From a virus (Duplodnaviria > Caudoviricetes): 60,803 nt of DNA. Location of the stretch: IMG/VR virus record IMGVR_UViG_3300020044_008671, positions 1-60,803 of that record. One strand, 5' to 3'. The notes beneath the pieces were generated by a model. The model worked only from the letters and a program-made list of their open reading frames with translations. It had not been told where the DNA came from and searched no databases. How positions within the stretch are numbered: the stretch's first letter is position 1; each line of letters begins with the position of its first letter. This document shows positions 3,230-43,200 of the stretch, piece after piece. The position numbers and the translations under genes were made by a program.

Positions 3230-3256
3230 TTTTTTATTATATTAGTTATGATTATA

Positions 3257-3754: not shown

Positions 3755-3762
3755 AATAGTAA

Positions 3763-4137: not shown

Positions 4138-4139
4138 AG

Positions 4140-6219: not shown

Positions 6220-6236
6220 AATACATTTAATAACAA

Positions 6237-6309
6237 AGCCTTGAAAAACAGAGTTAGGATTATCAGTCCCTAGAAACGTGTAGTTCGTTTCGCTCTGCCT
6301 TTCAAGGCT
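6237..6309 (-). ncRNA. Putative structured 5' leader (multibranch RNA) of the initiator operon
   Basis: Nested inverted repeats: AGCCTTGAAA/TTTCAAGGCT, CAGAG/CTCTG, TAGG/CCTA, GAAACG/CGTTTC. Confidence 0.55.
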
Positions 6310-6354
6310 CTTAATTTCTTTACTACATTTTAAGCAGTTGATTAGTCTGCTTGG

Positions 6355-6362
6355 CAAACATA
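6355..6362 (-). promoter_or_regulatory. -7 promoter element TATGTTTG for the replication operon
   Basis: TAnnTTTG match in the intergenic region after terL. Confidence 0.6.
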
Positions 6363-6401
6363 ATTAAAAATGACAACCATCCAAATAATTGTTAATAAAA
6401 T

Positions 6402-8267: not shown

Positions 8268-8295
8268 ATATTAATAGACTTAATTAATTTTATCT

Positions 8296-8598
8296 TCATA
8301 ATATTTTCCATACTATAATACCATTATCACTCGCATTGGTACTTTTAATTGTAAAACTTACCCCAACAACTATCTCGTCAATGTCAACGTATAAATGTCC
8401 TATCGCTGTTGCCGTTGATTGCTTACGTGAAAGTACTACGTTCTTTCCTGCATTGATATTTGTTACCGTTGCACGACCAAGAACAAGTTGTATTTCTCCT
8501 TCTAATGCATCGTTCACGATTACATCCTCAAAGTAAACTGATGAAACTAACTCTAATGTTCCATCTTCATTCTGTTTCCACGTTTCGTTATAACCCAT
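8296..8598 (-). CDS. Small fibre tip-like protein
   Basis: GRATVTN...VVLSR...GHLYV...GVSFTIKSTNASDNGIIVWKI resembles C-terminal domains of phage fibres. Confidence 0.55.
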   Translation of the reverse strand: MGYNETWKQNEDGTLELVSSVYFEDVIVNDALEGEIQLVLGRATVTNINAGKNVVLSRKQSTATAIGHLYVDIDEIVVGVSFTIKSTNASDNGIIVWKIL

Positions 8599-8599
8599 C

Positions 8600-9427
8600 T
8601 TATGATATTTTGAAGTAAACTATTGGACAAGCAGTATTGTTGTTGGTATAAGCACCAAACGGATTCGGCAAAGTTCCAGCACCATAGGTTGAGCCTTTAA
8701 TAAATGAAGTCGTTTGAGTTGTTGTTACCGTTGCTTGTCCCATTATATTAAGCAATGCACCTCCTGTATTTGCAAAATTTCCTGTAATACTACAAGTTAC
8801 GCTTACCCAACAAGCAGTCCAATAGATTCCTTTAGTTAGTACCAATGGAGTTCCAAGAGTAACATTTTTTGAACCGTTAGAAGCTATATTTACCGAACCG
8901 CTAGTACATAGTAAAGCATTAGGTTCTCCTGCTGAATTACTATCATAAATGCCCCATGTTCCAAAAGAGCCAGCAGCAAATGCAACAACATTAATTGCTA
9001 TATCTGATATCGTTGTAGTTTTGGTGACAATAAATGGAATTAGATAAATATTGTTTAGGGTTGTAGATAAAGCTACCAATGTCCCTGTTAATAACATTGG
9101 CGTATGATATCTACCACCAATCCTGTTAAATTGTACTTCTTGTATTAAGTTTAAAGCAGTCTGTTGAGCAGTTGAAACAATTTTATTTACATCACTAGTA
9201 TCGTCAACGTTTCCCAAGCCAACTTGTAACTTAGTGACTGAATGGGGATTAGATAAATTGGCAACGTGTGTACTTAAGTCGCTAGAAGAAGTAGAATCAC
9301 CATCGGTAATAGCCTTTTGCAATGAAGCAGATGTCTTTAATAACAAAGCCTGCAGCGCATTATCATTCTCTAATCGAGTATTCGCTTCTTTTTTAATGTT
9401 TATTCGTAATACATCAAGATCTCTCAT
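8600..9427 (-). CDS. Tail or head fibre-like protein
   Basis: Fibre repeat HVANLSNPHSVTKLQVGLGNVDDTSDVNKIVSTAQQTALN followed by a beta-rich C-terminal domain. Confidence 0.75.
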   Translation of the reverse strand: MRDLDVLRINIKKEANTRLENDNALQALLLKTSASLQKAITDGDSTSSSDLSTHVANLSNPHSVTKLQVGLGNVDDTSDVNKIVSTAQQTALNLIQEVQFNRIGGRYHTPMLLTGTLVALSTTLNNIYLIPFIVTKTTTISDIAINVVAFAAGSFGTWGIYDSNSAGEPNALLCTSGSVNIASNGSKNVTLGTPLVLTKGIYWTACWVSVTCSITGNFANTGGALLNIMGQATVTTTQTTSFIKGSTYGAGTLPNPFGAYTNNNTACPIVYFKIS

Positions 9428-9428
9428 A

Positions 9429-9830
9429 TTAGTTTCTTTCAGGCATTTTTCTAGTCATAGCACCTTCCATGTTGTTATCTGAAGCAAGAATGTCGCTTTT
9501 TGCAACAACATTCTTTGATTTTTCCAACATTTCAAACAGTTTAGGCGATTTTTCAATAAGAGTTATAAACCTGCCAAAGATAACGTCATCTTTCTTGTTA
9601 TTCAAAAGAAGTGTGCAGTCAGCATTTCCACTTAAAAACAAATTAATGTCGTTTCCAACAGCTATTGCAGCCTTGGTAATTTGATTTTTTAAATGGGAAG
9701 AAGCGTCTATTTTAGCCTCTAGCATAAGACCTTCGGTAATTGACAAAAGCTTTTGTATGGTCGGATTTTCTTCGCAAACAAGACTAATATCCTCCATTTC
9801 TTGTGGAGTAAACATTGATTCAATAGCCAT
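9429..9830 (-). CDS. Hypothetical protein, possibly terminase small subunit (start revised to 9830)
   Basis: Helical 133-aa protein, first gene of the terL operon; assignment is by position only. Confidence 0.45.
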   Translation of the reverse strand: MAIESMFTPQEMEDISLVCEENPTIQKLLSITEGLMLEAKIDASSHLKNQITKAAIAVGNDINLFLSGNADCTLLLNNKKDDVIFGRFITLIEKSPKLFEMLEKSKNVVAKSDILASDNNMEGAMTRKMPERN

Positions 9831-9859
9831 TTTGTGTTGATAATTAGTTTGGTGTATTG

Positions 9860-9897
9860 CAAAGATAAAATAGTTTTGTGTTAATTTCATAGATTTG
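9860..9897. promoter_or_regulatory. Divergent promoter pair: TATCTTTG (- strand, 9860-9867) and TAGATTTG (+ strand, 9890-9897)
   Basis: Two TAnnTTTG motifs back to back at the genome's strand switch. Confidence 0.75.
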
Positions 9898-9920
9898 TAA
9901 ACAATTGTAAAACACATACC

Positions 9921-12128
9921 ATGGACTCTAATAGTACCTTAATGCCAGACTTGTTCGACTGCTCAATGCCGGATCTTACAGGGCCACCATCACAAAGGGA
10001 CGATAATTTTTATAAAAAAGCTATTAGACACTTTAGCAAGTTTTACAATCCAAGGCTGCAATCTTTTGAGTCCGACGAGACTCCTTATTACATGACCGAT
10101 CTTGAACAGATAAAAGAGAACTTCTCTTATATGTATGCAAGACAAAGCAATAAAGACTATGCTTATATGGCAACCGATGGCGTTACTAGAAAGCAAGATA
10201 GTCTAGGTATTGTGCCCGGAGGAAAGGTTTCACAGATTGTCGAATGGATGCGTGGTAAGTTCCAAGAGATGATTAACAACATGGAGTTGGAGGCCATATC
10301 TATTTCGCAGGATGCCAAAACAAGAGAGACCAACATGTTTGACAAGGTTATGCTATCTTATCTGTTAAAGCCTGAATTATCACAGTTAGCACAAGAAGGC
10401 GTAGACTTCATGCCTGCAGGACCAGACTTTAAGCCTGAAATATCAGAAGACGTTTATCGATGGATGGATCGTTCATTTTCAGCTAAGATGCAGATAACAT
10501 CAAAGTATATCGCGGACGATATTTTATACAACAACCATTACAAACAACTTTTCTTACGTGCAGCAACACACGTTTTAGTGGCAGGAAGAGCAGGAATAGA
10601 GGCTATCGCAGAAAAGGGAAAGATGAAACTTAATCAAATTCCTGCATGGCAGCTAATTACAGATACTAGCGTAGATGATGACTTTAACAGAAAGGCAAGG
10701 TTTGCAGGATATGTAACATACATGACTCCGGTAGAAATTTTTAGCCGATGGGACGACTTTTCAGTAGCCGACAAGGAGACCATTAAAAAACTTGCTAATG
10801 GAGACACGTTAAGCGACCAAGGCGAGATCACATATACCTCGTTTAACTCAAGCCACTCCAACTTTAACTGGTGGAACAGACACAAGGGAGGAGATATGGA
10901 AATTGCCGTTGTCAAGATGTACTTTAAGTGTACAGAAGATGCCAACTACAAAAAAAGATACGATAGATACGGCAACCCTCACATTAAAAAGCAAGACTAT
11001 CAAACTAAGACAAGCTCTTACACCTACCAAGGATGGAGACAAGGGGTGCTTATTGGCAATATGTTCTTACGTGATGCAGGCGAAGTGCCAAATAGAGTTG
11101 GAAGCGTCGGCTGTTTTGATGAAAGCGACTGCCCACTAAAGATATTCATGCCAAATATGAACCTTGGCGAAAACAGAAGTGTAACTGACAAGTTAAAAAA
11201 ACACCAAGATAGAATAGACGCCTTCAGAAGAAAGCTAACAGACAACGCAGCAAAGCTTGGAGGCAAAGGAATTGTAATTAACGGATCTATTTTTGGAATT
11301 AGAGAAAACGACAAGGTAGTTGCTGATTTAAAAAGAGATGGCGTTTCAGTAATCAATGCAGAATCAGGCGAGCCAGGAGAGGCTTCTCCATTTCAAGGTG
11401 CAATCATGCCTATCGACATGTCGGGAGATCCTAACATGCGCTATTATATTGACCTCATCCGAGAAGAGGAGCGTAACATGGAAGAAATATCTAACATTCC
11501 TAAGATAGCACAAGGAACACAAAGTGGATATGTAGGCGCAGGGGTGCAAGACAGAACATTAGCACAATCAGCCCTTGGCACAGCAACGCTATACTATGGA
11601 TTTATAGAATGGGTAAATTATTTAATGCAATATAGCGTAAATGTGGCCAAGTATGCGATGACAGCAAGTAATGACGACTACCATGCACGACTTAAAATAG
11701 GAGATATAGGATATAAATACGTTCATATCACAAGAGAGCTAAGATTAGAAGAGGTAAGTGTATGGTTTAAGGTGCAAGACGTAATCGACGAAAGCGCAAA
11801 AGGAAGAATACGAGCATACGCACAAGCCTTTAGTCAAAACCCTGAATGGGGAATAGATCCACTTGATATATTAGAGTTAGAAAGAGCTAGAACGTGGACA
11901 GAGATGATTAACAACTTGGAATACAGCCTTAAACGAAAAAAACGAGAGATGGCGCAGCAAAAGGTATATAATGATATGTTGGCGCAAATTCAGAACGAGC
12001 GAGCACAATCAGCGCAAGCAGAACAAGCTCAGTTACAATCAGAAACAAGCAGGGCAAATACACAAGATAAAATACAGGGAGACATTACTAAAGAGGCTAT
12101 AAAGCAAAATCCCGAACTTGTTAATTAA
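9921..12128 (+). CDS. Portal protein
   Basis: 735 aa, first gene of the structural operon; WRQGVLIGN, SVTDKLKKHQ, EEISNI..IAQG motifs and Q-rich C-terminal coil as in crAss/P22-type portals. Confidence 0.85.
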   Translation: MDSNSTLMPDLFDCSMPDLTGPPSQRDDNFYKKAIRHFSKFYNPRLQSFESDETPYYMTDLEQIKENFSYMYARQSNKDYAYMATDGVTRKQDSLGIVPGGKVSQIVEWMRGKFQEMINNMELEAISISQDAKTRETNMFDKVMLSYLLKPELSQLAQEGVDFMPAGPDFKPEISEDVYRWMDRSFSAKMQITSKYIADDILYNNHYKQLFLRAATHVLVAGRAGIEAIAEKGKMKLNQIPAWQLITDTSVDDDFNRKARFAGYVTYMTPVEIFSRWDDFSVADKETIKKLANGDTLSDQGEITYTSFNSSHSNFNWWNRHKGGDMEIAVVKMYFKCTEDANYKKRYDRYGNPHIKKQDYQTKTSSYTYQGWRQGVLIGNMFLRDAGEVPNRVGSVGCFDESDCPLKIFMPNMNLGENRSVTDKLKKHQDRIDAFRRKLTDNAAKLGGKGIVINGSIFGIRENDKVVADLKRDGVSVINAESGEPGEASPFQGAIMPIDMSGDPNMRYYIDLIREEERNMEEISNIPKIAQGTQSGYVGAGVQDRTLAQSALGTATLYYGFIEWVNYLMQYSVNVAKYAMTASNDDYHARLKIGDIGYKYVHITRELRLEEVSVWFKVQDVIDESAKGRIRAYAQAFSQNPEWGIDPLDILELERARTWTEMINNLEYSLKRKKREMAQQKVYNDMLAQIQNERAQSAQAEQAQLQSETSRANTQDKIQGDITKEAIKQNPELVN

Positions 12129-28248: not shown

Positions 28249-31200
28249 ATGGCAGAGATAGCAGAAGAAACCCCATTGGCGGTACAGCAAAATACAAACC
28301 AAGCATTAAAATCATTTCATAATGCGTGGAAGGATGATTTAAAGCTACCTCAAGATATAAATGAGTTTAAGAATGGGCTATCGAACGAGCAAGGAAGGAT
28401 GGCGTTTTGGAAGGCTTGGAAAGATGATATTTCCCTGCCAGACTTTGAAACTTTTAGTAGTAAGTTAGGATTTGATAAAGGTACAGCACAACCTATTCCA
28501 CCGCCTCCTGCAGTACAGGAAGAAATGCCGATGGAGACAACGCCTACCCAACAAGCTATAAAGCCAGGTATGGAAGGTTTGGCTGCTTTTACCAACAAGC
28601 AACAAAAGGAACAGGGCAGAATGTACTTTGATGATAAGATTAAGCCTTTAAAGATTAATCCGAATACAGAAGAAGACAATAAGCTTATTGAAGCCACTAT
28701 CAAAGATGCTCAATACCAAGCACCAACATTAAAAGAGCAAGAAAAGGAAGAGGTAAGCCTTGAAGCCTACCAAGAAAGAGTTGCTGCAAGGTACAACAAA
28801 GTAGCACTATCTATCGATGTTTGGATATTGCAGAACAAGACACAAGTTGAAGAAGAGATTCAAGAGAAAAAAAACGCAGATCCTGCGTATATCTCACTTA
28901 GAGGAAGTATTGAGGCGAAGACCATAGAATATCAACAAGGACTAGTTCAACAGGCACAACAAGCAATTGCAGGTCAGCAGATAAGTAAGGAGCAACAAGC
29001 ACAGATTAGTCAAGAGATAAATAAGAAGACGCAAGAGTTTAAAGATGCTGAATTTTTAAAGAGCAAAGAAGCGTTTGATAAGATTTCAGCTCCGCACATT
29101 AAAGATGGAGAGGATAAGTTAAAAGCGCAGTGGGATAACTACCAACGTGAGGCGATGAAGCCTAATACTGCTATCATCCCCCAAAAGATGCTTGACAATG
29201 CCCTAAAGCTTGTTACAAGTCCTCAGTTTGACGCACTTGGATATGAAGGTAAGAAGACTACGATAGCTAACTTTTGGAAGAGACAAGAGGCAGCCTTAGA
29301 AGGCAAAGGGCTTTCATTTGATAAGATAGAGGCTATCAAGGATGAGTATTACTATGCGGTAATGCCCAAGGTAGTTGTTAATGAAGAAAATCAAATAGCC
29401 CCTTTTGCTATCCGATCATTTGCAGAAGACCAAATAGAGGTATTAACACAACAGATTGCAGAAGCACAGAAAGCAGTACAAGTAGCGGACGCAGAGCAGG
29501 CGACATCACAAAGATTTTCTTCTAAGAACGACCTTGTAGTCCCAACTGTTACATCAAATAGAGCAGCAGACAAGGCAAAAGAAAACGTCTATAATTTAAT
29601 ACAAGCTAAAAAACATCTTGAAAACATTTTAGAACTATCAGATAATGAGTTCGCAGGTTTTTGGGCAGGTTTTGGAGCGCATGGCGTTCGCAATAAGATG
29701 CCATTCCTTTCTTCTATGCTTGACATTTCAGAGGCTGCAAACCTATTTACGGTAGTTAATAAATTAGATGCAGGACAACCGTTAAACGCAGGAGAAAAAG
29801 CTTTGTTAACAGCTTATTCTGCAGATCAGTCTATGCAGTCAGTTGCAAGAACAACGATGGCGTATAAAGCAGGAGAAGGTGTAGCACATTCATTGCCGTA
29901 CATGGCAGAATTCGTTGCTACCTCTGGTGTTTTTACAGGCACATACTCGGCAACAAAATTAGCACTTGAAGGGGTGTTAGGATCGTATGCTAAAAAAGCT
30001 ATGGTTCAAAGAGCAATCGTCAAGCCATTAGCAGGATTAATAGCTATCGAAGCTCAAACAGCAGCTAACCCACAAGCATACATCAAGGCAACACAAGAGC
30101 GTATGTTACCATCTTTTCAAGTAGCATTTGGCGAAAAGGGAGAGCAGATGGCAGCGATATTAGATAGAAACGCTGTAAATCAACTAACAGGATATAATAC
30201 AGGACACAACGAAGAGTTTTGGACTGCTTTGGTAAAAGGATTTGGCACTACCTCAGTAGATTTTGCTACAGAGAGAGGGGGGGAGTTAATTGAAAAGACG
30301 TTTAAATGGGCTGCAGGCAAAAAGAATATTCAGAAGTTCCTAACGCCTGACGTTATTAAGCGACTATCAATAGGACATTACCTAGAAAAGATGGGCCTAC
30401 AGCCTGATGCTGCAATAAAGAAGTTTATAGCAGAGAAGATGTCCTATCAAAGTTTTCCTGCTGAATTATTTGAAGAGTTTACAGCGATAGCTCCATCTAA
30501 CTTGATTACAGGAGATGCGCCAATGATGACAGGTATTGTCAATTATGACGATACCAACAAAGACTTCTTTGACTGGAAGGCGATAGGACAATTGACAGCA
30601 ACAGTAGCAGCAACATCAGCCTTATTAGGAGGAGCAGAGTTAGCAGGCACTATTGCATCAAAGGCTTGGCAGAAAACAAACCCTATCAAAGTAACGATGA
30701 GGGACAGAAACGGCAATGCGTTTAAGATAACCATAAAGCACTCTACACTTGCGCAGATTGTGAAGTTTAACACAATGAGCAAGGATGAATTAGTAAAGTG
30801 GAGAGACGAGGCGTTGCCAAAAATTGATGAAGAAGGAGATGCTAGATTATGGGTAACAAAATACGCTGATCAATTTATTAAGCAGAAGTCAGAACAAGAA
30901 GAACAAAACGCAAAGTCAAGAGAAAACTTATTAGGACAACTATTGCCTGATTTTACAGGGCAGAAGGCCACTTTTGAACAACAAGAAATATTTGATATCC
31001 TCCAAGCAAGAGTAGAAACATTGCTAGAAGAAGGATTAATACCACTACCAAAAAATGAAGAAGGAAACCAAAACGCACAAGGCAACCAACCCTTATCACA
31101 AGAAGCAGGGGAACAAGAAGATGGAACCGGCAAAGAAGGGGCCAAAGAAAATGAAGTAGGCAGATATGCAGCAGCTATTCCTACAATGCAGGAGTTGGAG

Positions 31201-34200
31201 GTTGACCTTCCGACAAGGCAGTTGGTAGGGCTTAGAGATAAAATTAAGGCTAATCCCGATAATACCGAAGCTATCATACAAGAAGAGGTAGATAGGCTTA
31301 AAGCGCAACAGTCGGATCCTGTATTTAAAGATCAGCCCGACTTTTTAGAGGCACAACAAGAGAAGATAGCAGCGCTAGAGAATGTAGTTGCTAAGATACA
31401 GGCTTCAACAAAAGTTACTCCTGGTCAACAAAACCAAATAATAATAAACCAAGATGGAAAAGCAGAAGAAAAACCCTTGTTGGAAGGGGTACAAAATGTT
31501 GGGAATGAAGGACAAGTCGGGCAAGAAAGTCCCGAACTGCGTACCCAAGAAGTCAACCAAGCAAAAGAAAGGGTAGATAAGTTTGTTTCAGAAACATTAG
31601 CACTTTCAACAACAGACCAAAATTTAAAGTCATTATTAGAGACTGATCCAAGAGCAGCACTACAAGACCTTATAGATTTCCATACAAATCAGAAGAGAGG
31701 GAAAAGTGATGTTTCGCAGAAATACCATCAAAGGGCTATTGATAGGTTTACAGCCTTACAAAACGATATTGACTTAATCAATCAAAATCAACAATCTGAA
31801 TTTAAAACCATAAGCGAATTTAAGGTCGGAGATATTGTTTCCGATAAAACAGGCGTAAATTATGAGGTAATGTCTCTTAATAACAAAGAGGCTAAGTTGA
31901 AAAACTTATCAGATACAGCTATGCCGGGAAGAATTGAAACCTACCCTATTGGCACTAACGCTAGGTTTAAATCTATATCTAAAAAAGTATTAACCCCTAA
32001 AAATAATCAAGATGAAAATGAAAATGGAATCCAAGAAGGAAGAAATGATGGAAAAGAAAATGTCTCCGAAAATGTACAAGGCGATGGAAAAGAAGGAGGG
32101 CAAGAAGTCGACAAGCAAAAAGAAGAAAAAGAAAGCCTGTTAAACCCTTCTGCACAACAAGACAAAAACAGTTCCAAAACTACTACGACAGAGCCTATGG
32201 TTATCTTTAAAGGTAACAGAGGCAAGTTAAACCCTGATGGGACTAAAAAGACAGCACACCCTGGAGTAGAGGGTGTTTTTGGAAGTACACAGTTAAAGGC
32301 TGCACAAAGATATGGAGAGGATATCTCGGAGTTTGACATTCCGATAGGCACAACCATAGAAACGGTAGAGCTAGAAGACAAAAAAACTCCTGTATCAAAG
32401 GCAAGAAAGATAGAAACAGACTTGATAAACAACTCTGATGCGCAGGTAGTAAGATTAATTACGATAGACGCAACAGGGAGAGAAGTTCAGTATATCATCA
32501 AAGACAAAAGCCTATTAGGTAAAAGGCCAACAGACGAAGTTACCGAAGCAGACGTTGTAGGTAAAGCCCTAATCCCTCGACTTAACAGAGGATTTTTAAA
32601 GGTAGGAGCCTTTATTCTAACTAACGAAAAAGCATTAAGAAATAAGGCTGACGATCTAATGTTGCAGGGAGAAGACTTGCGATTTAATATGACAATGCCT
32701 AATGGGGATAAAAAGACAATCAAAATAGTAAGTGAAGATGTTGTAAACGGATTTTATTCTCCATTAGAAAGAATAATCAACGAAACTAAGCTAGAGAAGC
32801 TTCCTGCAAAACAATGGTTAGATAAGTTTGGCAAAGGAGAAGAGGCTAAGTGGACCGGATTAGCAGAGTGGCTATCACAACAGCAAGGATCAGTCTCTAA
32901 AGCAGACATACAGCAGTACCTTAAGAACAACAGAATTAGTGTTGTTGAGGTTGTTAAAAGCGAGAACGACAAAAATCCAGAGTACCTAAAGCTAGTAGCA
33001 CTAGTGGAGGAGCTAAATAGTAAAGAGGGCAACAGAGTAGAACTGACAGATGAATTATACATAAACGGAGACGTAGGTAATTTCCTTAGTGCTGATGGAC
33101 TTACAATCAACATGGAAGAGTATGATCCAAAAAACTTTCCTAATTATACAAGAGAAGAATACGAAGAGCAGGCTAAAAAAGCAGTAGAGGCTCAAAAGAT
33201 TTTTAACGCAAATCAAGGTACGTGGGAAGATAACGGAGGTGTTAGTAGTGTTCGATATACAGACCAGCAAGAACAAGGAGAAAAAGAAAACTACAAGGAG
33301 GTGTTGGTTACGTTGCCATCAAAAAGAAATAAAGCAAAAGTTGTAGAGAAAGATGGGAAGTGGAAGATACAAAATTCAGACGGTAGTTTATCGCCAGTTT
33401 CTTTTACAGCCAAAAGTTTTGCAGAAAAAGCATTAAAAGAATATATAGAAAGAGAACAAAGTGGAGAGAGAACGGATAAAGAAACATTCAAATCCTCCCA
33501 CTTTGATGAACCAAATATTCTTGTTCATTTAAGAATGAATACTCGTACCGATGCAGATGGTAATAAAGTATTATTTCTTGAAGAAGTACAGAGCGATTGG
33601 GGGCAGATAGGGAAGAAGGAAGGGTTTGGCGAAACTTTTGTTATAAAAAGCAGAAACGGAATACCCGTTGGAAAAGAATTTTCTAATAGAAAAGATGCTG
33701 AAAAATACTTAAAAGAAAATTTTGATTTTGCTAAAGAAGGCGCTTATACTGTTCAGTCTAAAAATTCAACTCCTGCCGCGCCATTTGTGATGGACACAAA
33801 CGCATGGACCAAACTAGGGCTTAAGGTTGCTTTAAAAGAAGCAGTAAAGCAGGGTGCTGATAAGATTGCGTGGACAACAGGTGAGCAACAGAATGAAAGG
33901 TATAATTTAAGTAGGATAATTAAAAATATAGATGCTAAGATTGATGGGACAGCAGCATCAGATAACTCACCTATTTATAAGATAACATCAAAGTATAAAA
34001 GTGGGGAAGAAACAATTGGAAGTTATAGACAAGATGAATTAGAGGGTGTAGTAGGAAAAGAACTCGCTGAAAAGATTATCAAGAATAAGGGCGGAAAATA
34101 CGAAGGTGTAGATTTGCAAGTTGGCGGTAAAGGCATGAAAGGCTTTTATGGTTCGCCAACAGAAGGTAGTTTAGGTATAGTAGGTAATGTAGCTAAAAGT

Positions 34201-37200
34201 TTATTTAAGCAAGAGCCAAAAACGGTAACAATAGAAGTTTTAGGTAAAGTTCCCGATAGAACAAGCGTAGCTGATATTTATGAGGCAGGCGGAATGGAGG
34301 AGTTTAAAAAGAAAAACGTAATTAAATCCACCCAACACTCCATAGACATAACCCCCGAATTAAAAGCGCAAGTAGCACAAGGGCTTCCTTTATTTCACTT
34401 TGGCAATGATGGAGAGATATTAGGCTTTGCGTATGATGGTAAAATGTACTTGAATGGAGAGAAGCTTACGGCGCAGACTACCATGGAAGAGGCAGGCCAT
34501 ATATGGATCAATTGGTCAAAACAAAACCGACCAGACTTATATGATGCAGGGCTTAAAAAGGTAGCAAGTTCTAAATATCTAGTGCAAGTTTCTGCTAATC
34601 CTAAATACAAGGCAGAGGCTTTGAAGGTAGGTAAAGCAGGAAGTAAAGAGTACAACGATTACCTATTAGAAGAAGCGTTAGCTAAAGCTATTGCGGACCA
34701 AGGAGCATTATTTGTTTCTCAATCTAAGAGAGATTCCTTTAAGGAGTGGGTGCGTGAGATGTGGAAGGCAGTTACAAAAGCATTTGGCATCCAAGGTTTA
34801 TCATCAGAAGATATAGCTAAGTTGACTTTAGAGGACTTTGCTAAGATGGCAGCAGCAGATACTTTATCGAAAGAGAAGAAGGCAAAGCCAACTCAAGAAA
34901 TAAAGCCAACATTAGTTGCAGGAGAGGGAATGTTTCCTCTTAAAGATATTAATACAGACGAGGTTAGATTTCAGAATAGAGACAAGGCATTTAGTCCTGA
35001 ATCAGTAGCAAGGATTGTCAAAAACTTTGATCCTAACAAAATGGACGCTGTTGTCCTTTGGAAAGATCCCAAGGATGGCAAGACATATATGTTGTCGGGA
35101 CACTCTCGACTAGAGGCGCACAAACAACTAGGTAAAGGTCAGATTAAATCAAGGTTCTTTACAGGAACAGAGGCAGAGGCTATTGAATATGCTCGTACTT
35201 CTAACGTGCAAGGAACAAGAGAGACTAATACTGAAAGGGCAGCCTATTACAGAGCAAAGCGATTGGCAGGCGCTACAAACGCAGAAATAGAGGCAGAGGC
35301 AAAAGAACTAGAAGGGGCAAACGCAGCTAAAATCATTAGCTATTCATATTTAAACCCAAAAGGAAAGGTTGTCGCTGCATTACAAGCAAGCGAAGGAGCA
35401 GACGTTGCAAGTGAGAAAAATATCGAGGCGATAGCTAACTGGATTGGAAGTTCAAGAAAGCAATTTTCTATCTTGACAAATGCGCATGAAGATGAGATGT
35501 ATAATTGGCTTGTAGGAGAAGGCGTGTATGGCAATATTATTAAAAACAAATTGGTATTTACTGATCGCATCAATGCTGCGATAATGAAGAACACAGAGTT
35601 TGGAACCTTTAATGCTGAAAAGCCACTTAATCTCAACAATAAAGCAACTAAGACTTCTATTGAATTAGAGTACGATCAAGCAGTTGACGAGGCAACAAAA
35701 ACATTAGACGCAGCCAACAAAGCATTGGCAGCTAAAAGAACTGAATTAGTTACAAGAAAGGCTACAGCAGAAGAGATAGGCCGTATTCTTAAGCCATTCA
35801 ATGACGCAGTAATTGTAGCACAAAAGACATTAGTTGAGTTAAAGGCTAAGAAAGGAGAAGTGCTAGCAGCAGCAGCCAACCAACCATCATTATTTGACGA
35901 AATCCAAGAAAACATAGACAATGGAAACACCAATGAAGAAGAAGTCATCATTACCTTATCAAAGCCCGATGAGCCAATACAAGAAGATGATCAGGCTAGT
36001 GGAGGCGTTACGCCAAAACCATCCCAAGAAGACAATAAAACAAAAATAGATTCTATTAATGTTTTAGCTATAAAAGAGAGTGTTACAAACTTTGGTAGAC
36101 TGCAAGTGGGAGACAAGTTTTACATAGTCAAGCATAAAGCATTTACGCCTAGTTGGGATGGTGCTATATTAGGCGTTAAAACAGGTCCAGGCAAGTATAA
36201 GGTGGGTAAAAACGTCTTTGATATAGACGATACGGATATTGTTGTTTTAGAGTCCGATGTCATAAAAACACTTACCCCAACAGAATTCTATACTATTGCA
36301 AACGCAAGCACAAGAGCTGCAGGATGGGGCAATGCTTTAGTGGCAAAAGAGTTTCCAAAAGAGGTTCAAGATTTTTATTGGAGTGTTTCTGATAAAATGG
36401 TATCTATGTGGAAGCCTGGGCAACAATATAGTATTGGCCAATCTAAATATGAAATAGGTCTTATTACTACTGATGATAATGGACATAAAGTTGCACAAGT
36501 TACTGTAATAAAAGCGCCAACAAACTATTTTGGCGGATCCTCTATACAACAAGAAGGAGATGTAATTCTTAATGCTGTACCAACTCCCAAAGCTCAACCT
36601 ACACCTCCCCCAAGCCAAGAAAACAAACCCAAAGAGCTAACAATAAAAGCGAAGGGTGCTAAATATGAATATAGGGCGACTGATTCAACAGGCAACCATC
36701 TTTATATATCAGCAACAGGAACTAAGTCAACATACCCATATTTAGTGGTAGCTAAATACGGAAGTCAAAACTTCATTGTAGATATAGTAGACCATTGGGA
36801 GTTTCCTGATTTTGGGCAATATAAAATAGGGGCTAACAAACCTAATTTACAACCTACACCTCCGCCAAGCCAACCAAATCCTAAAGCAAAAAAGAGAGCA
36901 AGACGAGAAGTTGAAGAAGATCCTGAATTAGATCAATTACTAGGAGACTTATCGAATTTAGTACGCAACTCACGAAAAAATACAAACGTTAACTTTGATC
37001 CAATACAGGCAGCAGCCATAGCAGCTAAAGGAATTCAAATAGTAGCCTCTTACATAAGAAAAGGGGTGTATAAGTTTAAAGATATCATAGAGGAATTATA
37101 TGATAGAATTGGCGATACAGTCAACGATTTATACTTATCAATAAAAAAAGCCTATTTTTCTTATAACGCAGAAGCTGCTGACGAGATTGCAAGCCAAATG

Positions 37201-40200
37201 GATAATCTTAGTGATATTAGAAATATTACTTTGGCAGATATTATTCCTCAAGAAGAAGAAGACGAAGAAATAATTGAGGAAGAAATTGACAACGAAGATC
37301 CAATGTCTGAAAGAGACATGCAGATAGCAACGATAGCCCCATTTGCAAATAAAATACTATCAATGTTTGAAGATGGTTTTAAATGGACTTCAAGAACGCA
37401 GTATGAGAATATAGCTAAAATATATAAGATTACGGATCCTGCTATTGCAAAAGAAGGAGTTGAATATGCAATTACGCTACACGTTAAAAACATTGTCGCA
37501 CAAGGCAAGGAAAGCGGATTATCAGAGAAAGAGATTTACGACAAGATAGTTGACTTTTATGGCCAACAGCCTAATATGAGTCTGCGAACTAGCGAAAGCA
37601 TAGAGAATCAACAGTACTCAACACCTACTCCGTACTCATTTGCAGCAGCAATGTTTGTGGGTGGAACAGAAAATACAGAAGGCAAGCAGTTCTTTGAGCC
37701 ATCAGCAGGAAATGGACTATTGGTAAGTGCAATACCAAGCGCACAGGTAGAAGTAAACGAGATTGACGAAGTAAGAAATCATACCTTAACATTACAAGGA
37801 TTTAAGTTTGTAGGATCACAAGACGCAACCAATAGCTTTAACAACAAGCTAAAAGCTTTTGATGGTATTTTAACTAACCCTCCATTCGGTCCGATGGAGA
37901 CTACCATGTCGTATGATGGATTTAAGATTCGTGATAAGGCACATTGGATGGCGTTGAAAGCATTGGAGACAATGGCCGACAATGGAAGTGCAGCAATTAT
38001 TGTAGGAGGAAACAGCGAATACGAAGCCTCGGGATATATAGCAAACAACAAAGCGTTTATCAATTATCTGAATACAAGATATAATGTAATCGATATTATT
38101 AATGTAGATGGTAAGCTATACTCTAAGCAGGGGACTACGTTTCCTACGCAGATAATACTTATAGGCGGAAGAAAGTCCGAAGTAGGAAAATTGGCGTTTA
38201 ATATGCCAATTGAAAAACAAGCAGCAGTTAATAATTGGGATGATTTATACTCACGAGTAAAAATAGCACAAGATGAAAGAAATATTTTACAATCCAACTT
38301 GGATGCCGGACGAAAGGACAGCTTGCCTCCTAATGGTCAAATGCAGCCGGGAACACCGCCCCAAGAACAAAACCCAACTCCAATACCTCCTAGAGGACAG
38401 AGTGGAGGAAATGGTCAAATTACAGGAGGAGGAATGGCCGGGCCACGCAGTGGGACAAATGAAGGCAGAAATCCTAGACTCCCAAATCCACGACCAAATT
38501 CCACGAACCAACAACCCGAAGATATTAGCCCAATTCCTGGTGGAATACGGTCCGATGGGCCAAGCATTGAGGATGCCAGTAACCAAGACGAAGGCGAAAC
38601 GGTTAACCCAAGCCCAATTACAGGAATTGTGGGAGAGGATGGATTTTCAAAATCTACTCGATATGATGTAGAAGAAGTATTCGCTAGTAAAGTTGATGTA
38701 CCATATTTGCCAGTTTCTACTGCTAATGGAGGAGGAACTAGAATTCCTTCTACAATGGCATTACCTTTAGAGGCTGCACTATTACAAATAGATCAGCAGT
38801 TTGGAGGAATAGATAATTATGTTGCTAATAAGTTAGGCTATAAAACAATAGCTGATTTACATGAAGTTTTCTTAGCGGAGCAAATTGATGGCGTAGCGTT
38901 GGCTATCTATAATATCGACAAAGGAGAAGCGGTAATAATTAGCGACATGGCAGGAATTGGAAAGGGAAGAATAGCTGCAGGGATTATACGCTATGGTGTG
39001 AGAATAGGGAAGAAGCCTATTTTTATGACGCAGAAAGCTGCCTTATTCTCTGATATGAAACGTGATTTAATGGACATTAAGAGTGGGGATCTTGTGCCAA
39101 CGATTATGTCTAGTAATACCGAAGCTAATATAGTTGTTAAAGACGACAACGATAATGACGTTCTTATGCATAAAGCTCCAAGTTTGGAATTAGCTAAAAG
39201 AATATACGAATCGGGCCAAATGTTGCCTGGCACAGACTTTATGTTTGCCAACTATTCTTATTTTAACAAAGCAGCAGAAAAAGCAAAAAGAAATTTTTTA
39301 AAAGGGTTAGCAACAGATAACATCCTAATCTTAGATGAGAGCCATACTGCAGCAGGAGAAAAGCCTGCAAGAAGGCAGAAGAATGAAGATGGTACTGAGA
39401 AGATAAATTTAGCAACGTTTATGCGTAGTGTAGTTGAAGTTTCGCAAGGAGTAACTTATTTAAGTGCCACCTATGCCAAGACTGCTAAAAACATGCCTAT
39501 TTATGCGCTCAAAACAGCAATCAGAGACACAGGATTAAGCCCAGACGAAATTACGATAGCGATAGAATCGGGGGGAGTACCTTTGCTAGAGGTAATATCA
39601 AGACAGCTAGTTCAGTCGGGGCAATTAGTAAGAAGACAACGTAGCTACGATGGAATAAAATTCCAATATCCTGTTATTGGAGAGAATAATGAGGCTGAAA
39701 GAGATGCGCAATGGAAAGTCGCAGATGAAATCACTGCACTATATCGCAAGATTATTTCTTTTCAAGAAGAATATGTGCAGCCTGCAATAGAAGCTTGGGA
39801 TAGTGAATTACAACCAGTAGGAGGTGGGGCAGGCGCAACACAAGGAACGGTTAAAATGGGAATTTCTAACACCCCATTTGCAAATAAGCTATACAATACC
39901 ACTAACCAGCTATTGTTAGCATCAAAAGCGGATGCTGTAGCAGATATAGCGATAGCTGAACTAAAAGCAGACAGAAAAGTAGTGTTGTTTGCCATGAACA
40001 CGATGGAGTCGTTTATGTCTGACCAAGATAATTTAGGGCAAGAGATGGAAAGCCCTGATTTTATTGAGGTAACAAAAAAAGCTTTATCGGGAATTTTTAG
40101 AGTTACAATGACAACCATGTCTGGCCAAAAAATAGACATGATATTGCCATTAGACAGATTAACGAAGGAAGGGCAAGAGGAGTTCCGTAAGTTAGAGGAG

Positions 40201-43200
40201 GAGATAAACAACAAAAAGACAGGACTTCCACTAAGCCCTATCGATCACATCTTAAATAAAATTGAGGCAGCAGGATTTAGTACAGCAGAGATAACAGGGC
40301 GAACCAACAGATTAACGCAACAACAAAATGGGATGTTTGCTTTGTTGCCAAGAAAAAATAAAAACAGAAAGCAGAACGCAAGAGACTTTAATAACTATGT
40401 GCCTAACACGAAAAGGAACATTGTAAATGCCTTATTTATTAATCAAGCAGGAAGTACAGGAATAAGCTTACATTCAAGTAAGACAGTATCAGATCAACGA
40501 GAACGAACAATGATTGTTCTCCAAGCGCACCATGACATTAACGAAATGGTACAAGCTTTAGGTAGGGTATTTAGAACAGGGCAAGTAAATAACCCTAACT
40601 ATATATTTGTGTCAAGCGCACTTCCTGCCGAGTCTAGGCTGATGATGATGTTGAAAAGCAAAATACAAAAACTTAGTGCAACTACTACCTCAGATTCAAA
40701 AGATTCTACCGTTAAGGCAGAGGCGGACATTTTAAATATGTACGGAGATGGGATAGTAACAAGATATTTAGCAGACAATATATCGGACGATCCAAGTAGA
40801 CCAGGGGTAAATGAATTAATTGGAGATATATTAGATCTTAGGCTTCTTGTAATGATACAAGGACAAGAGGCTGTTCAGAACGAAGTAGAAAATCCTCAAG
40901 AAGATGCAGCAAGAACAGTGACAGGGCGGATAGCACTATTGCCTGCTGCTATGCAGAAAGATTTTTATGATACGGTTGTGAAAGATTATATTGAACTTAT
41001 TGACGATTTAGATAAGAAAGGCGAGAATAAGCTAAAATCACAAGCCCTTCCATTAAATGCTGTAACGGTGTCGAAGGAAGTATTTACGATTGGGCAAGGC
41101 GGCAGTTCAGTATTTGGGCAAGACTCTTTTCTTGAAATGGTAGAGGTAGACGTATTGAGGCAGCCATATTCTTCATTTAAAATTAAGGAGTTAATAAAAG
41201 AGCAGCTTGGCGAAGAAACAGCAGAGGAGCAGAAGGAGAGAATAGTGGCAGAGGCAATAGCTTACTATGATAACCAAGCATTGACATACAATCAACTGCA
41301 ACAAGAGAGAAAAGAACAAAAGATAGCAGAGGCTAGAGAAAAATATGAGGCTTTACCAAAAGAAGAGCTAAATGAACTACAACTAGAAGAGTTAAAAAAT
41401 CAATATGCTTTTATAGAGGCAGAAGCAGAGCAAAGAATGGGCGACAATATTGAGATAAATAGAGCTAAAGCCGAAAGAACAAAAAATATTATAACAACCT
41501 ATGTGCGTCAGTTTGCGCCTGGCAAACAAATGGTGGCTCCTGCAAATTCGGCTGATGGGACTACTACGGCAATTTCAATAGGGATAAATATAAACTACAA
41601 AGCAAAGAACCCATATACTTTATCAGGAATGAAAGTTCGTATAGCGTATGCTAATGCTATGCAATATCGCACTATTCCAATAAATAAGTCTAGGGAGTTA
41701 CAACCTATTATTGAGGCAACAGTTGCGTCAAGAACTCCGATGGATAGTTCTACTATATTAGAAAGATGGGACAATCTAAAGTCAAATAAAACAAGAGAAA
41801 AAGTTCCAATCATCACAGGAAATATATTACAAGCATACAAGGGAGATGTTTTAACATTAGGGAAGATCATTTCGTATAACACGTTGGATGGCAAAATAGA
41901 AAACGGCATATTGATGCCAGTAAATTTTGCCAAACCTACAACAACAAGTGTTCCTGCTAAACAGATGGCAGGCATCATTCAAAACCTAAACAAATATCAA
42001 ACTGTCTCAACAACGAACGGTGTAATATTTGAATGGGCAGATAAGGCAAAAACCGAACTAGAGATTTCTGTTCCTAGAAGCAAAAAGCAGGGGGGTATAT
42101 TTTTCTTAGATGAAGACATTAGAGACTTAGTAAATGGGCGTAACTTTAGATCAATGGGCAATCAAATGACTGCAAGTATGCCTGCATCTAACCTTCAGCC
42201 ATTGTTAAATATCCTTTCTGATAAACACAAGTCCGTTGTGGAAGTAAGGAATGAAGATCTGCCTGTTAGCCCTAACAATATGCGCAGTGGCAATGATATT
42301 GATAGCGCAAGAATAGGGCCTCCCGATGTTGACAGTAGAATGGAAGGAGACAAGCCATCTTTGCCTAATCGATCAAAGCTATTTGGGCAGATTGATGCAC
42401 TAAAGATCAATACAAAACGAGCGTATTCATTAGCACCTCCATTTGTATTTGCAATTGGCACATGGAACCTTGCTTTAGATATTCTTAAAGGAGCAATAAT
42501 CGCAGGTGATACTATCAACTTAGCTATCGACAAGACTGTTAGCTACCTTAGAGGACAAGCAGTAGCAAATGGATTAGCAATGAATGAGAGGGCAGTAACA
42601 GACTACCTTACATTACTTGCAAAGAAGCCTCATCTACTATTGAGCAATGCTGAGAAACGCATACTAAAGAGCAATGTAAAAAATCAGTTAATATTTCAAG
42701 AACTTAACTTGGAGCAGGCTGTATATGGAAGAATAATACAGACTCCAACATCTGCTGCAAGAAGAGGACTAACACGAGTGATGCCCGAGATGGCTATACT
42801 TGGAAAGGCGCAGAATGAAACTATCGCCAAAGGCACAGAAGCAATAGGCAGAGGAGTTCAGCAGCTTACACGCATGATGGGATCAAGTAAGTTTGCTCCA
42901 GTACGACTAGCAGCAAAGACATTGGCAGGAGTATTTAAAAATATCCAAAGAGACTTTGAGCATGTCAACAAAGCGGAAGAGATGTATGGCGCTATCGAAG
43001 GAAGGTCAATGTTAGATGCCGTTCAGTTGAGCAATATGCTTAAGTCAATGCTTGAAGGAGAAAGTCCAGATGCAATGCGCAGAATTGATGAGGTCCTTGA
43101 CCCTATATTTTACAGCAGAAACAAAACAAAGCAGCAGTTCTTTGATGAGTTAGACAACTTTTATCTATTGTCAACAGGGCAAACGATTAGTGGATCTTTC

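What the first reader, a model, noticed from the sequence alone, without database searches (positions are those of the whole stretch)
31454..31576. Nested peptide carrying the CWKGY...VPNCVP phage motif
The +1 frame reads MEKQKKNPCWKGYKMLGMKDKSGKKVPNCVPKKSTKQKKG, while the main frame here is a featureless linker (DGKAEEKPLLEGVQNVGNEGQVGQESPELRTQ). I recognise C-W-x-G-Y-x3-G-M-K-x3-G-K-x-V-P-N-C-V-P from memory as a two-Cys hairpin motif in small or repetitive proteins of T4-like cyanophages and other environmental phages. A roughly 22-residue motif is very unlikely to arise by chance in an off frame. This is the strongest single sign that the nested frame is the constrained one.
Basis: partly seen in the sequence, partly recalled or inferred. 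Interest (0 to 1): 0.88.

Follow-up and report, generated by a model that had tools for sequence, protein, structure and literature searches.

The report
Mini-gene nested inside giant phage gene
A 40-codon gene for a small, positively charged hairpin peptide found in hundreds of phages sits in a second reading frame inside a 5,767-codon phage gene, and comparison with other phages suggests the small hidden frame, not the big one, is conserved there.

Summary
Window 31454-31576 (+1 frame of the 5767-aa ORF 28249-45552) reads MEKQKKNPCWKGY...VPNCVPKK...*. It matches a phage motif in 384 GenBank phage records (tblastn E down to 1e-8) and 7 PHROGs at E<0.01. None of 8 other off-frame ORFs of the same gene hit any PHROG.

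It is not an assembly error. Contigs from independent lake metagenomes show no indel between 31242 and 32118.

The same module, in the same frame relation, occurs in at least five other lineages of giant phage ORFs that are otherwise unrelated around it. Each copy has its own ATG and stop.

Outside the search anchors, the nested frame is better conserved than the host frame: 67% against 49% amino-acid identity. Differences pile up at nested third positions (20 of 38). Only 6 of 38 are synonymous in the host frame, against 18 in the nested frame.

Free-standing 33-48-aa homologues sit in ordinary gene arrays. AlphaFold2 predicts a beta-hairpin.

Best reading: a pre-existing mini-gene engulfed by a giant modular protein gene and still translated from its own start. 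Translation and function are untested.

The parts
28249..45552 (+). Host gene: a 5767-aa giant modular ORF, polyvalent-protein-like, lying among virion genes.
   Evidence: ORF listing and translation. Pfam finds AAA_34 and Helicase_C_4 (Strawberry-notch type) in the C-terminal half. Neighbours match PHROG virion structural protein, tail protein, portal and terminase families. 6130 library proteins match residues 600-1800 at E<=0.001, many of them 2000-7000 aa long.
31454..31576 (+). Nested mini-ORF in the +1 frame: ATG, 40 codons, TAG. It has a basic N-tail, the motif core and a basic C-tail.
   Evidence: Matches. Homologous nested ORFs in other giant genes.
31475..31546 (+). Motif core P8-P31 (PCWKGYKMLGMKDKSGKKVPNCVP), the predicted beta-hairpin. 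On the host frame it reads as the linker KPLLEGVQNVGNEGQVGQESPELRT.
   Evidence: Alignment A1 of 22 mini-proteins has invariant C9, G17, K19, K21, K24, V26, P27, N28, C29, V30 and P31. AlphaFold2 predicts strands 13-21 and 24-31.
31439..31447 (+). Three consecutive stop codons (TAA TAA TAA) in the nested frame, two codons before the nested ATG. The host frame reads them as part of ...I I I N...
   Evidence: A nested-frame stop lies 0-2 codons before the ATG in the window, L148, L152 and L156.
31531..31531 (+). Natural variant C>G in related lake strains. It is synonymous in the nested frame (Val26 GTC>GTG) and changes Pro to Ala in the host frame.
   Evidence: table 3 (runs X2 and X5). Frames worked out.
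31384..31602 (+). Extent of the shared cassette: the only stretch of the giant protein (residues 1046-1118) that aligns with the host ORF of L129.
   Evidence: BLASTP.

Best explanation
The stretch is a dual-coding cassette.

What it is. A pre-existing phage mini-gene lies wholly inside the giant modular virion-associated gene, one base out of register. It encodes about 33-50 aa: basic tail, PCWKGYxMxGxKxKxGKxVPNCVP, basic tail, and is predicted to fold as a cationic two-strand beta-hairpin with a Cys near each end.

How the two frames relate. The giant protein reads the same bases as an E/G/Q-rich linker, whose sequence is largely dictated by the mini-gene. The mini-gene is the older and constrained reading. 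The linker is the derived one, a kind of 'reverse overprinting' that most likely arose when neighbouring genes or domains fused across a mini-gene.

Inferred, not shown. The peptide is made by independent initiation at its own ATG on the giant gene's mRNA. The ATG sits in an A-rich, unpaired context without a Shine-Dalgarno sequence, like the other gene starts of this phage.

Function. It is unknown. My best guess is a polyanion (nucleic-acid) binding hairpin that works with virion or ejected proteins. A membrane-active lysis peptide is the second guess.
For: 1. Homology of the nested reading.
- 384 phage records by tblastn; 7 PHROGs at E<0.01.
- 19 gene-called mini-protein clusters of 36-64 aa at up to 86% identity.
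- ESM Atlas nearest clusters are 35-39-aa proteins, score 0.94-0.96.

2. Free-standing homologues look like ordinary genes. Mini-ORFs of 33-48 aa sit in tight same-strand gene arrays. Several have purine-rich Shine-Dalgarno-like sequences or a 1-nt stop-start overlap with the upstream gene.

3. The arrangement is real DNA. Contigs of X1, X2 and X7 (three studies) cover 31454-31576. The only indel listed in 30500-32500 is an AAG insertion at 32119.

4. It recurs.
- The 5' anchor scan of IMG/VR gave 3 true copies of 17 hits.
- The 3' anchor scan gave 3 of 3 in IMG/VR and 7 of 25 in metagenome contigs.
- All copies are in the same frame relation. Open host frames are 813, 1278, 1880, 2296 and 2422 aa, plus one copy overlapping the start of an 873-aa ORF.
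- The host ORFs share little or nothing around the module.
- Two further giant proteins (P0009, P0053) carry the host-frame reading.

5. Selection signature in columns not fixed by the search pattern, 8 sequences.
- Amino-acid identity 0.67 nested against 0.49 host; BLOSUM62 per site 4.13 against 2.45.
- Family-conserved residues kept: C9 8/8, G17 8/8, K19 8/8, K21 8/8, P8, W10, K11 and M15 7/8, G12 and Y13 6/8.
- In four close pairs there are 38 differences: 18 synonymous in the nested frame against 6 in the host frame, and by nested codon position 11, 7 and 20.
- The one listed natural SNP in the ORF is synonymous only in the nested frame.

6. The host frame uses codons it otherwise avoids, exactly where the motif needs them. 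CCC is 8% of Pro codons, NTG 21% of Leu and GGG 17% of Gly in the giant gene.

7. Start codon.
- Every copy has an ATG 3-12 codons before Cys9 and a stop 5-10 codons after NCVP.
- The 25 nt upstream are A-rich, like the other gene starts of this window, and most of those lack a Shine-Dalgarno sequence.
- These 25 nt are unpaired in the minimum-free-energy fold.
Against: - There is no direct evidence of transcription start, translation or peptide. No sigma-70-like promoter lies on the + strand in 30800-32000.
- An in-frame ATG upstream could be partly chance: ATG is 3.4% of +1-frame codons.
- Some copies deviate at conserved residues. L146 has Q for W10, R for K11 and A for M15. L152 and L155 have SH for G12-Y13.
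- Raw change counts by codon position over all 8 sequences are only mildly skewed (17, 14, 23).
- The four pairs are few and not fully independent, because L029 is used twice.
- The 3' half of the metagenome copies and the 5' 21 nt of the IMG/VR copies were fixed by my patterns. They cannot count as evidence.
- The nested state is rare in the family. Only 1 of 120 sampled IMG/VR copies lies in a long ORF of the other frame.
- The function is not indicated by any library: no Pfam family, no PDB sequence match, no significant Foldseek PDB match.
Confidence: 0.68

Rival explanations
1. Untranslated passenger. The cassette derives from a mini-gene and was spread recently among giant genes by recombination. 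Only the host-frame linker, or nothing, is now under selection, and the nested reading is a decaying relic.
For: - No expression data exist.
- The nested state is rare (1 of 120 sampled family copies).
- L146, L152 and L155 have lost some consensus residues.
- The cassette clearly moves between unrelated contexts.
Against: - None of the 8 compared copies has a nested-frame stop or indel, despite substantial DNA divergence.
- Differences concentrate at nested third positions (20 of 38).
- They are synonymous three times as often in the nested frame as in the host frame (18 against 6).
- Host-frame fourfold sites stay frozen at rare codons.
- ATG and stop are retained in all copies.
Confidence: 0.13
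2. Programmed +1 ribosomal frameshift. Ribosomes translating the giant ORF slip into the nested frame just before the motif. The product is a truncated protein of about 1100 aa that ends in the hairpin module.
For: In other phages the module is often an in-frame part of larger proteins, sometimes at the very C-terminus, for example L045 and L058. The frame offset is +1.
Against: - Nested-frame stops lie 0-2 codons before the ATG in 4 lineages. The slip would therefore have to occur within about 10 codons.
- Those codons share no slippery sequence across copies.
- In L146 the mini-ORF begins upstream of the host ORF's own start, which frameshifting cannot explain.
- The basic tails match free-standing mini-proteins, not the acidic flanks of in-frame modules.
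Confidence: 0.07
3. The host-frame linker (EKPLLEGV...GQES.ELR) is the functional, selected unit. The resemblance of its +1 frame to the motif is a by-product.
For: The host-frame peptide recurs in giant proteins and aligns between contexts.
Against: - Host-frame identity is lower (49% against 67%), with radical replacements such as G/T/A/N/E/K/D at one site.
- Only 6 of 38 differences are synonymous in this frame.
- Its conserved residues are those forced by the nested codons.
- The nested reading matches 384 phage records where no such host frame exists. The host-like frame is open in only 5 of 120 family copies.
Confidence: 0.03
4. Assembly or sequencing artefact, or a pair of compensating indels in this one contig. 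The motif would really be in frame with the giant protein.
For: Homopolymer runs flank the motif. Removing one base upstream and adding one downstream would put it in frame (reading).
Against: - Contigs from runs of three different studies cover the ORF without any indel.
- The same out-of-frame arrangement is found in 10 other contigs.
- 0 of 150 giant-protein representatives carry the motif in frame.
Confidence: 0.01
5. A structured RNA or a DNA binding site explains the conservation, rather than a peptide.
For: A short inverted repeat overlaps the P-C-W-K-G codons.
Against: - The consensus fold of 8 copies is -4.8 kcal/mol, and its covariation term (+0.38) does not favour the structure. Only 2 of 15 predicted pairs show a compensatory change.
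- The single-sequence fold has z = -0.73.
- Variation follows a codon periodicity in the nested frame.
Confidence: 0.02

Closest known systems
Embedded phage genes such as lambda Rz1 inside Rz (+1 frame) and phiX174 E inside D (recalled from general knowledge, not from a call)
   Same: A small ORF lies entirely within a larger gene on the same strand in another frame. It has its own start codon, and both readings are maintained.
   Different: - Here the embedded frame belongs to an old family that is widespread and normally not overlapped. The enclosing frame is the derived reading, the opposite of classical overprinting.
- The host is a giant modular gene, and the cassette recurs in unrelated positions of different giant genes.
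- There is no lipoprotein signal as in Rz1.
- Translation is unproven.
Polyvalent proteins of phages and conjugative elements (Iyer et al. 2017, PMC5512222; I saw the abstract and the passages returned by a term search)
   Same: The host gene is a multi-domain giant ORF encoded among virion genes and shares shuffled modules with thousands of other giant proteins.
   Different: A term search of that paper found 0 occurrences of 'overlapping', 'frameshift', 'linker' or 'cysteine'. A second gene hidden in a linker is not part of that concept. Packaging and injection of this protein are inferred only.
The unnamed CWKGY...VPNCVP module of cyanophage and other phage proteins (PHROGs 9737, 4359, 36547, 727 and others, all 'unknown function')
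   Same: Same conserved residues and spacing.
   Different: In most members it is an in-frame module with acidic flanks inside proteins of 100-1000 aa. Here, and in the free-standing mini-genes, it is a whole protein with basic tails. It is not covered by any Pfam-A model.
Phage-encoded cationic peptide for outer-membrane disruption, phiKT gp28 (preprint 10.1101/515445; I saw the search listing and the start of the abstract only)
   Same: A small cationic phage-encoded peptide. One group of free-standing homologues lies two genes upstream of an endolysin.
   Different: No sequence comparison was made. The motif also occurs inside many non-lysis proteins. No lysis genes were identified next to it in this window.

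Membership tests
CWKGY...VPNCVP phage mini-protein / module family (unnamed; PHROG 9737 and others) | Significant sequence match to family profiles and members | tested here: met
   phrog_9737 at E 4.3e-9 and six more families at E<0.01. tblastn finds 384 records. 19 mini-protein clusters match at E<=3e-5.
CWKGY...VPNCVP phage mini-protein / module family (unnamed; PHROG 9737 and others) | Invariant residues and fixed spacing: C-W-K-x-Y-x-M-x-G-x-K-x-K-x-G-K-x-V-P-N-C-V-P | tested here: met
   All are present in the window's peptide. Invariant columns of alignment A1 are listed.
CWKGY...VPNCVP phage mini-protein / module family (unnamed; PHROG 9737 and others) | Free-standing form: 33-50 aa, own ATG, basic N- and C-tails | tested here: met
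   40 aa with tails MEKQKKN- and -KKSTKQKKG. Compare L004, L007, L071, L073, L095 and P0156-P0174.
CWKGY...VPNCVP phage mini-protein / module family (unnamed; PHROG 9737 and others) | The peptide is made and folds as a Cys-flanked beta-hairpin | not testable with these tools
   Only an AlphaFold2 model exists (mean pLDDT 78, core 91-92). The disulfide or metal state is unknown.
Embedded (nested) overlapping gene | ORF wholly inside a longer same-strand ORF in another frame, with its own start and stop | tested here: met
Embedded (nested) overlapping gene | Purifying selection on the embedded frame, shown by comparison of diverged copies | tested here: met
   on columns outside the search anchors. 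The sample is small: 8 sequences in about 6 lineages.
Embedded (nested) overlapping gene | Demonstrated translation of the embedded frame | not testable with these tools
Rz1-type embedded o-spanin | N-terminal lipoprotein signal with lipobox Cys (feature recalled from general knowledge) | tested here: not met
   The N-terminus MEKQKKNP is charged and has no hydrophobic signal segment.
Programmed +1 frameshift site | Conserved slippery or pause sequence in the short window between the upstream nested-frame stop and the motif | tested here: not met
   No shared sequence there across the copies. L146's mini-ORF starts before the host ORF's start.
Polyvalent protein (host gene) | Giant multi-domain protein encoded among virion genes, with domains shared combinatorially with other such proteins | tested here: met
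   Packaging and injection were not tested.
Defensin-like disulfide-rich peptides | Significant structural match and three disulfides (the disulfide count is recalled) | tested here: not met
   The best Foldseek E-value is 1.8. The peptide has only two Cys.

The most novel reading that the evidence does not exclude
An ancient phage mini-gene for a cationic, Cys-flanked beta-hairpin travels as a dual-coding cassette among giant injected 'polyvalent' protein genes. The giant genes grew by fusing across it and read it out of frame as a linker, so the linker is the de novo product (reverse overprinting). The peptide is still made by internal initiation and acts together with the giant protein, for example bound to the packaged DNA or to the ejected protein, or as a membrane-active lysis or entry peptide. 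This would make giant phage ORFs a place where conserved hidden genes can be found systematically.
Probability: 0.45. Interest if true: 0.82.

Novelty: new variant of a known kind. Interest (0 to 1): 0.72.

Why it matters
Gene callers forbid ORFs nested in longer ORFs, so a gene like this is invisible in annotations.

This case is unusually well supported for a sequence-only finding. The hidden frame belongs to a family seen in hundreds of phages, so its coding status does not rest on the overlap alone. The same overlap also recurs in unrelated giant genes.

It offers three things:
- A clean natural example in which the older gene is the embedded one, and a protein linker was created by reading it in another frame.
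- A testable model for how giant modular phage proteins grow by fusing across small genes.
- A defined, synthesisable 40-aa peptide family of unknown function that is very common in marine and freshwater phages.

Tried and rejected
Searches for relatives of the giant gene around the module that found nothing useful:
- The search for related loci with residues about 800-1400: 16 pattern hits, none confirmed.
- The search for homologous proteins on residues 700-1500: 5023 candidates, none at E<=0.001, lengths 3171-10093 only.
- blastn of 30000-33500 against phage records: no match.
- The search for homologous proteins with the 60-aa host-frame peptide, 'longer': 7 candidates, none scored, only 106-2000 aa searched.
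- The best collinear relative, P0008, aligns at its N- and C-terminal thirds but not across the module.

Other negative or uninformative results:
- An exact back-translation of MEKQKKNPCWKGY found nothing in IMG/VR.
- The genome-contig scan with the 3' anchor gave 7 hits, 0 of them real, so there is no prophage copy and no host assignment.
- Pfam has no family for the peptide or over the motif in 10 larger carriers.
- A PDB profile search gave 0 hits at E<=10.
- Foldseek against PDB found nothing at E<=0.001. The alpha-defensin rows at E 1.8-9.5 only reflect a generic hairpin.
- Two other +1-frame ORFs in nearby linkers (31055-31159, 32012-32143) are K-rich low-complexity readings without any hit.
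- Short contigs in runs X1, X2 and X5 that match only 31433-31527 at 80-91% were seen. One of them (X1 record 4) has an open host-like frame and a nested-frame stop just before the ATG, by my reading of its loose end. This is a hint only.
- Run shares, habitats and parts without cover are not used as evidence beyond 'lake-water metagenomes hold near-identical strains'.
- No supplementary files were requested.
Full report
**1. What is there**

The window is an IMG/VR virus record of 60.8 kb, with CheckV completeness 57%. Near-identical strains occur in lake-water metagenomes of many studies.

ORF 28249-45552 (+) is 5767 aa long. It lies among portal, terminase, virion-structural and tail genes. 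Its C-terminal half carries a Strawberry-notch-type ATPase and helicase pair (AAA_34, Helicase_C_4). Residues 600-1800 match 6130 library proteins at E<=0.001, many of them 2000-7000 aa. It is therefore one of the shuffled giant modular phage proteins. The closest published concept is the 'polyvalent protein' (PMC5512222; I saw the abstract and searched passages).

At 31454-31576, one base out of register, lies a 40-codon ORF: MEKQKKNPCWKGYKMLGMKDKSGKKVPNCVPKKSTKQKKG*. The host frame reads DGKAEEKPLLEGVQNVGNEGQVGQESPELRTQ over the same bases. Three TAA codons in the nested frame (31439-31447) lie two codons before its ATG.

**2. Is it more than chance?**

An off-frame ORF of this size is common here. 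One search lists 16 same-strand ATG ORFs of 28 aa or more in the alternative frames.

The content is not common:
- tblastn finds 384 phage records (400 places), with E down to 1e-8, mostly cyanomyoviruses.
- PHROGs gives seven families at E<0.01, the best at 4.3e-9.
- Eight other off-frame ORFs of the same gene give no PHROG hit at E<=1.

In annotated phages the motif is read in frame. Paraglaciecola GD virus 1 gp34 has two tandem copies, and a 104-aa S-TIM66 protein has one. Both have acidic flanks.

BFVD holds many phage proteins with the module at 45-73% identity. Their names include cytidyltransferase, DUF6321-containing protein and virion protein. No Pfam-A model covers the motif itself. 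The motif strings occur in no relevant paper of the searched library.

**3. Not an artefact**

Contigs from runs of different studies cover the ORF:
- X1: 30500-31527 and 31498-32500.
- X2: 31050-32500.
- X7: 31242-31575.

The only indel listed in the 2-kb stretch is an in-frame AAG insertion at 32119.

The only substitution listed inside the ORF is 31531 C>G, in X2 and X5. It is the third base of nested Val26 and so is silent there. It is also the first base of a host-frame Pro codon, giving Pro>Ala. Twenty-three further differences in the stretch were not shown by the tool.

None of the 150 best giant-protein representatives carries the motif in frame. The idea of a recently frame-scrambled in-frame module therefore has no support.

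**4. The family includes free-standing mini-genes**

In most of them the motif lies in frame within open frames of up to 1001 aa.

Thirteen distinct ORFs of 33-48 aa have no same-strand ORF covering them, for example MADKKKGPCWKGYEMVGMKKKGGKPVPNCVPKGK. They sit in tight co-oriented gene arrays. Several have purine-rich Shine-Dalgarno-like sequences or a 1-nt overlap with the upstream gene.

In one group the mini-gene lies two genes upstream of an endolysin. Others lie next to baseplate or head genes.

The protein catalogue holds 19 gene-called clusters of 36-64 aa at up to 86% identity to the window's peptide. The ESM Atlas nearest clusters are 35-39-aa proteins scoring 0.94-0.96.

The window's peptide has the basic tails of this free-standing class. 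It does not have the acidic flanks of the in-frame modules.

**5. The nested arrangement recurs**

- A 21-nt anchor on the 5' end of the module found 17 IMG/VR loci. Three are true copies: L029, L129 and L130.
- A 24-nt anchor on the 3' end found the same 3 of 3 in IMG/VR.
- The 3' anchor found 7 true copies among 25 metagenome loci: L142, L146, L148, L151, L152, L155 and L156.

All ten copies have the same frame relation. Together with the window they fall into about six lineages.

Where the contig allows, the host frames are long: 813, 1278, 1880, 2296 and 2422 aa open. The module sits near the N-terminus, inside, or near the C-terminus of these frames.

In L146 the mini-ORF (18-170) overlaps the start of an 873-aa ORF (86-2707) instead of being nested.

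BLASTP among the host ORFs shows that, apart from close relatives, they share only the module itself or unrelated shuffled domains elsewhere. Two more giant proteins from the representative library, P0009 and P0053, carry the host-frame reading. By my back-translation on paper it is compatible with an intact nested motif. I have no DNA for them.

Of the 120 sampled family copies, only L029 lies in a long ORF of the other frame. The host-like frame is stop-free over the motif in only 5 of 120. The nested copies are therefore a special, codon-adapted minority.

**6. Which frame is constrained?**

I used only columns not fixed by the search pattern and eight sequences (window, L029, L129, L146, L148, L156, L152, L155), aligned without gaps.

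- Over nested codons 8-21, mean pairwise amino-acid identity is 0.67 in the nested frame and 0.49 in the host frame. BLOSUM62 per site is 4.13 against 2.45.
- Residues conserved in the wider family are kept: C9, G17, K19 and K21 in 8 of 8; P8, W10, K11 and M15 in 7 of 8; G12 and Y13 in 6 of 8. The family-variable positions 14, 16, 18, 20 and 22 vary freely.
- Four close pairs show 38 differences outside the anchors. Of these, 18 are synonymous in the nested frame and 6 in the host frame.
- By nested codon position the differences number 11, 7 and 20. The usual third-position excess therefore belongs to the nested frame, and the host frame's third position (nested position 2) changes least.
- My own binomial estimate for 20 or more of 38 at one position is about 0.01. 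This is not a tool result, and the pairs are not fully independent.
- Host-frame codons at the motif are ones the giant gene otherwise avoids: CCC 8% of Pro, NTG 21% of Leu, GGG 17% of Gly.
- The host-frame residues that look conserved (P-L-L-E-G-V and others) are those forced by the nested codons.

Points against:
- Pooled minimum-change counts over all eight sequences are only mildly skewed (17, 14, 23).
- L146 and the L152/L155 pair depart from the consensus at three and two conserved residues.
- The sample is small.

**7. How it probably works**

Shown: a dual-coding cassette, in which the nested reading belongs to an older, widespread family and is the better conserved frame.

Inferred: the mini-gene pre-dates the overlap. 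The giant gene came to read across it, most simply by fusion of flanking genes or domains. L146 may represent an intermediate state.

Inferred: the peptide is translated from its own ATG.
- Every copy keeps an ATG 3-12 codons before Cys9 and a stop 5-10 codons after NCVP.
- The upstream 25 nt are A-rich, like the other gene starts of this phage. Most of those lack a Shine-Dalgarno sequence, a pattern I associate from general knowledge with Bacteroidota-type initiation.
- The upstream 25 nt are unpaired in the predicted fold.
- No + strand promoter-like site lies nearby, so the peptide would come from the giant gene's mRNA.

A +1 frameshift product is unlikely. Nested-frame stops lie 0-2 codons before the ATG in four lineages, no slippery sequence is shared, and L146 cannot work that way. 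An RNA element is not supported.

**8. The peptide**

AlphaFold2 with a 22-sequence alignment gives a two-strand beta-hairpin: residues 13-21 and 24-31, pLDDT 91-92 over residues 11-30 and 78 overall. Cys9 lies just before the first strand and Cys29 within the second. Whether they pair, bind metal, or do neither is untested.

There is no PDB relative by sequence or by fold.

Function is therefore a guess. The module is strongly cationic, occurs in many virion-associated and DNA-metabolism proteins, and is embedded here in a presumably packaged giant protein. I favour polyanion (nucleic-acid) binding. A membrane-active role is the alternative, by analogy with the phiKT cationic lysis peptide (10.1101/515445; I saw the listing and the start of the abstract only) and given the endolysin-proximal mini-genes.

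**9. Comparison and novelty**

Nested genes in phages are known. Lambda Rz1 in Rz and phiX174 E in D are examples (recalled from general knowledge).

This case differs in three ways:
- The embedded frame is the ancestral, family-level gene, and the enclosing frame is the novelty.
- The host is a giant modular gene.
- The cassette recurs in unrelated giant genes.

A term search of the polyvalent-protein paper finds no mention of overlapping frames. A search for papers on overlapping or embedded phage genes listed nothing on this case (listing only). I rate it a new variant of a known kind.

**10. Verdict**

- Observation: confirmed.
- Interpretation: supported.
- Confidence that this is a selected, translated nested mini-gene: about 0.68.
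- Function: unknown.
- Interest: 0.72.

Noticed in passing
window 31993-32154 (giant residues about 1249-1302): A second short linker element (NENGIQEG.NGKENV...GGQ.V..QKE..LLNP) is shared at 57% identity with the 4922-aa relative P0008, although the surrounding sequence does not align. Extra short contigs from the lake runs pile up at 31974-32125. Its +1-frame ORF 32012-32143 is a K/M/E-rich reading with no PHROG hit. It looks like another shuffled linker cassette, without a recognisable hidden gene.
   Followed up: partly
window 38273-38671: A 132-aa ATG ORF lies in the +1 frame of the giant gene, over a P/G/N-rich low-complexity part of the host protein. It has no PHROG hit at E<=1. It is probably chance, but it is the longest same-strand off-frame ORF in the gene.
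   Followed up: partly
L146 18-170 and 86-2707: Here the mini-ORF is not nested. It overlaps the first 28 or so codons of an 873-aa ORF whose ATG lies inside the motif, where the host frame reads P-M-P instead of P-L-L and the nested frame has lost Trp10. It may be an intermediate between the free-standing and nested states. The first 17 bases of this contig resemble, from memory, a random-amplification primer, so the 5' end should be read with care.
   Followed up: partly
L065 2083-2193 and 2196-2471: A free-standing mini-gene is followed directly by a 91-aa gene. That gene matches the C-terminal ends of phrog_10346 and phrog_727, two families whose profiles also contain the motif just upstream. 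The module and this domain therefore exist both split and fused.
   Followed up: partly
window 31439-31447; L148, L152 and L156 at the equivalent place: A stop codon in the nested frame lies 0-2 codons before the nested ATG in 4 of about 6 lineages. +1-frame stops occur at 8.2% per codon, so this is only mildly unexpected. It could reflect termination-reinitiation, or it could be chance.
   Followed up: no
window 32119: Related lake strains (runs X1 and X2) carry an in-frame AAG insertion in the giant gene's linker.
   Followed up: no
window, gene starts throughout: Most ORFs have A/T-rich upstream regions without a Shine-Dalgarno sequence. Only 14779 has a clear GGAGG. GC content is 38%. This suggests a host with Shine-Dalgarno-independent initiation. 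The host was not identified: the genome-contig scan gave 0 true hits of 7.
   Followed up: partly
L008 4512-4628 (and L074): Another mini-ORF of the family (39 aa) is overlapped on the same strand by ORFs of 82 and 138 aa in other frames. It is a different and unexamined kind of overlap.
   Followed up: no
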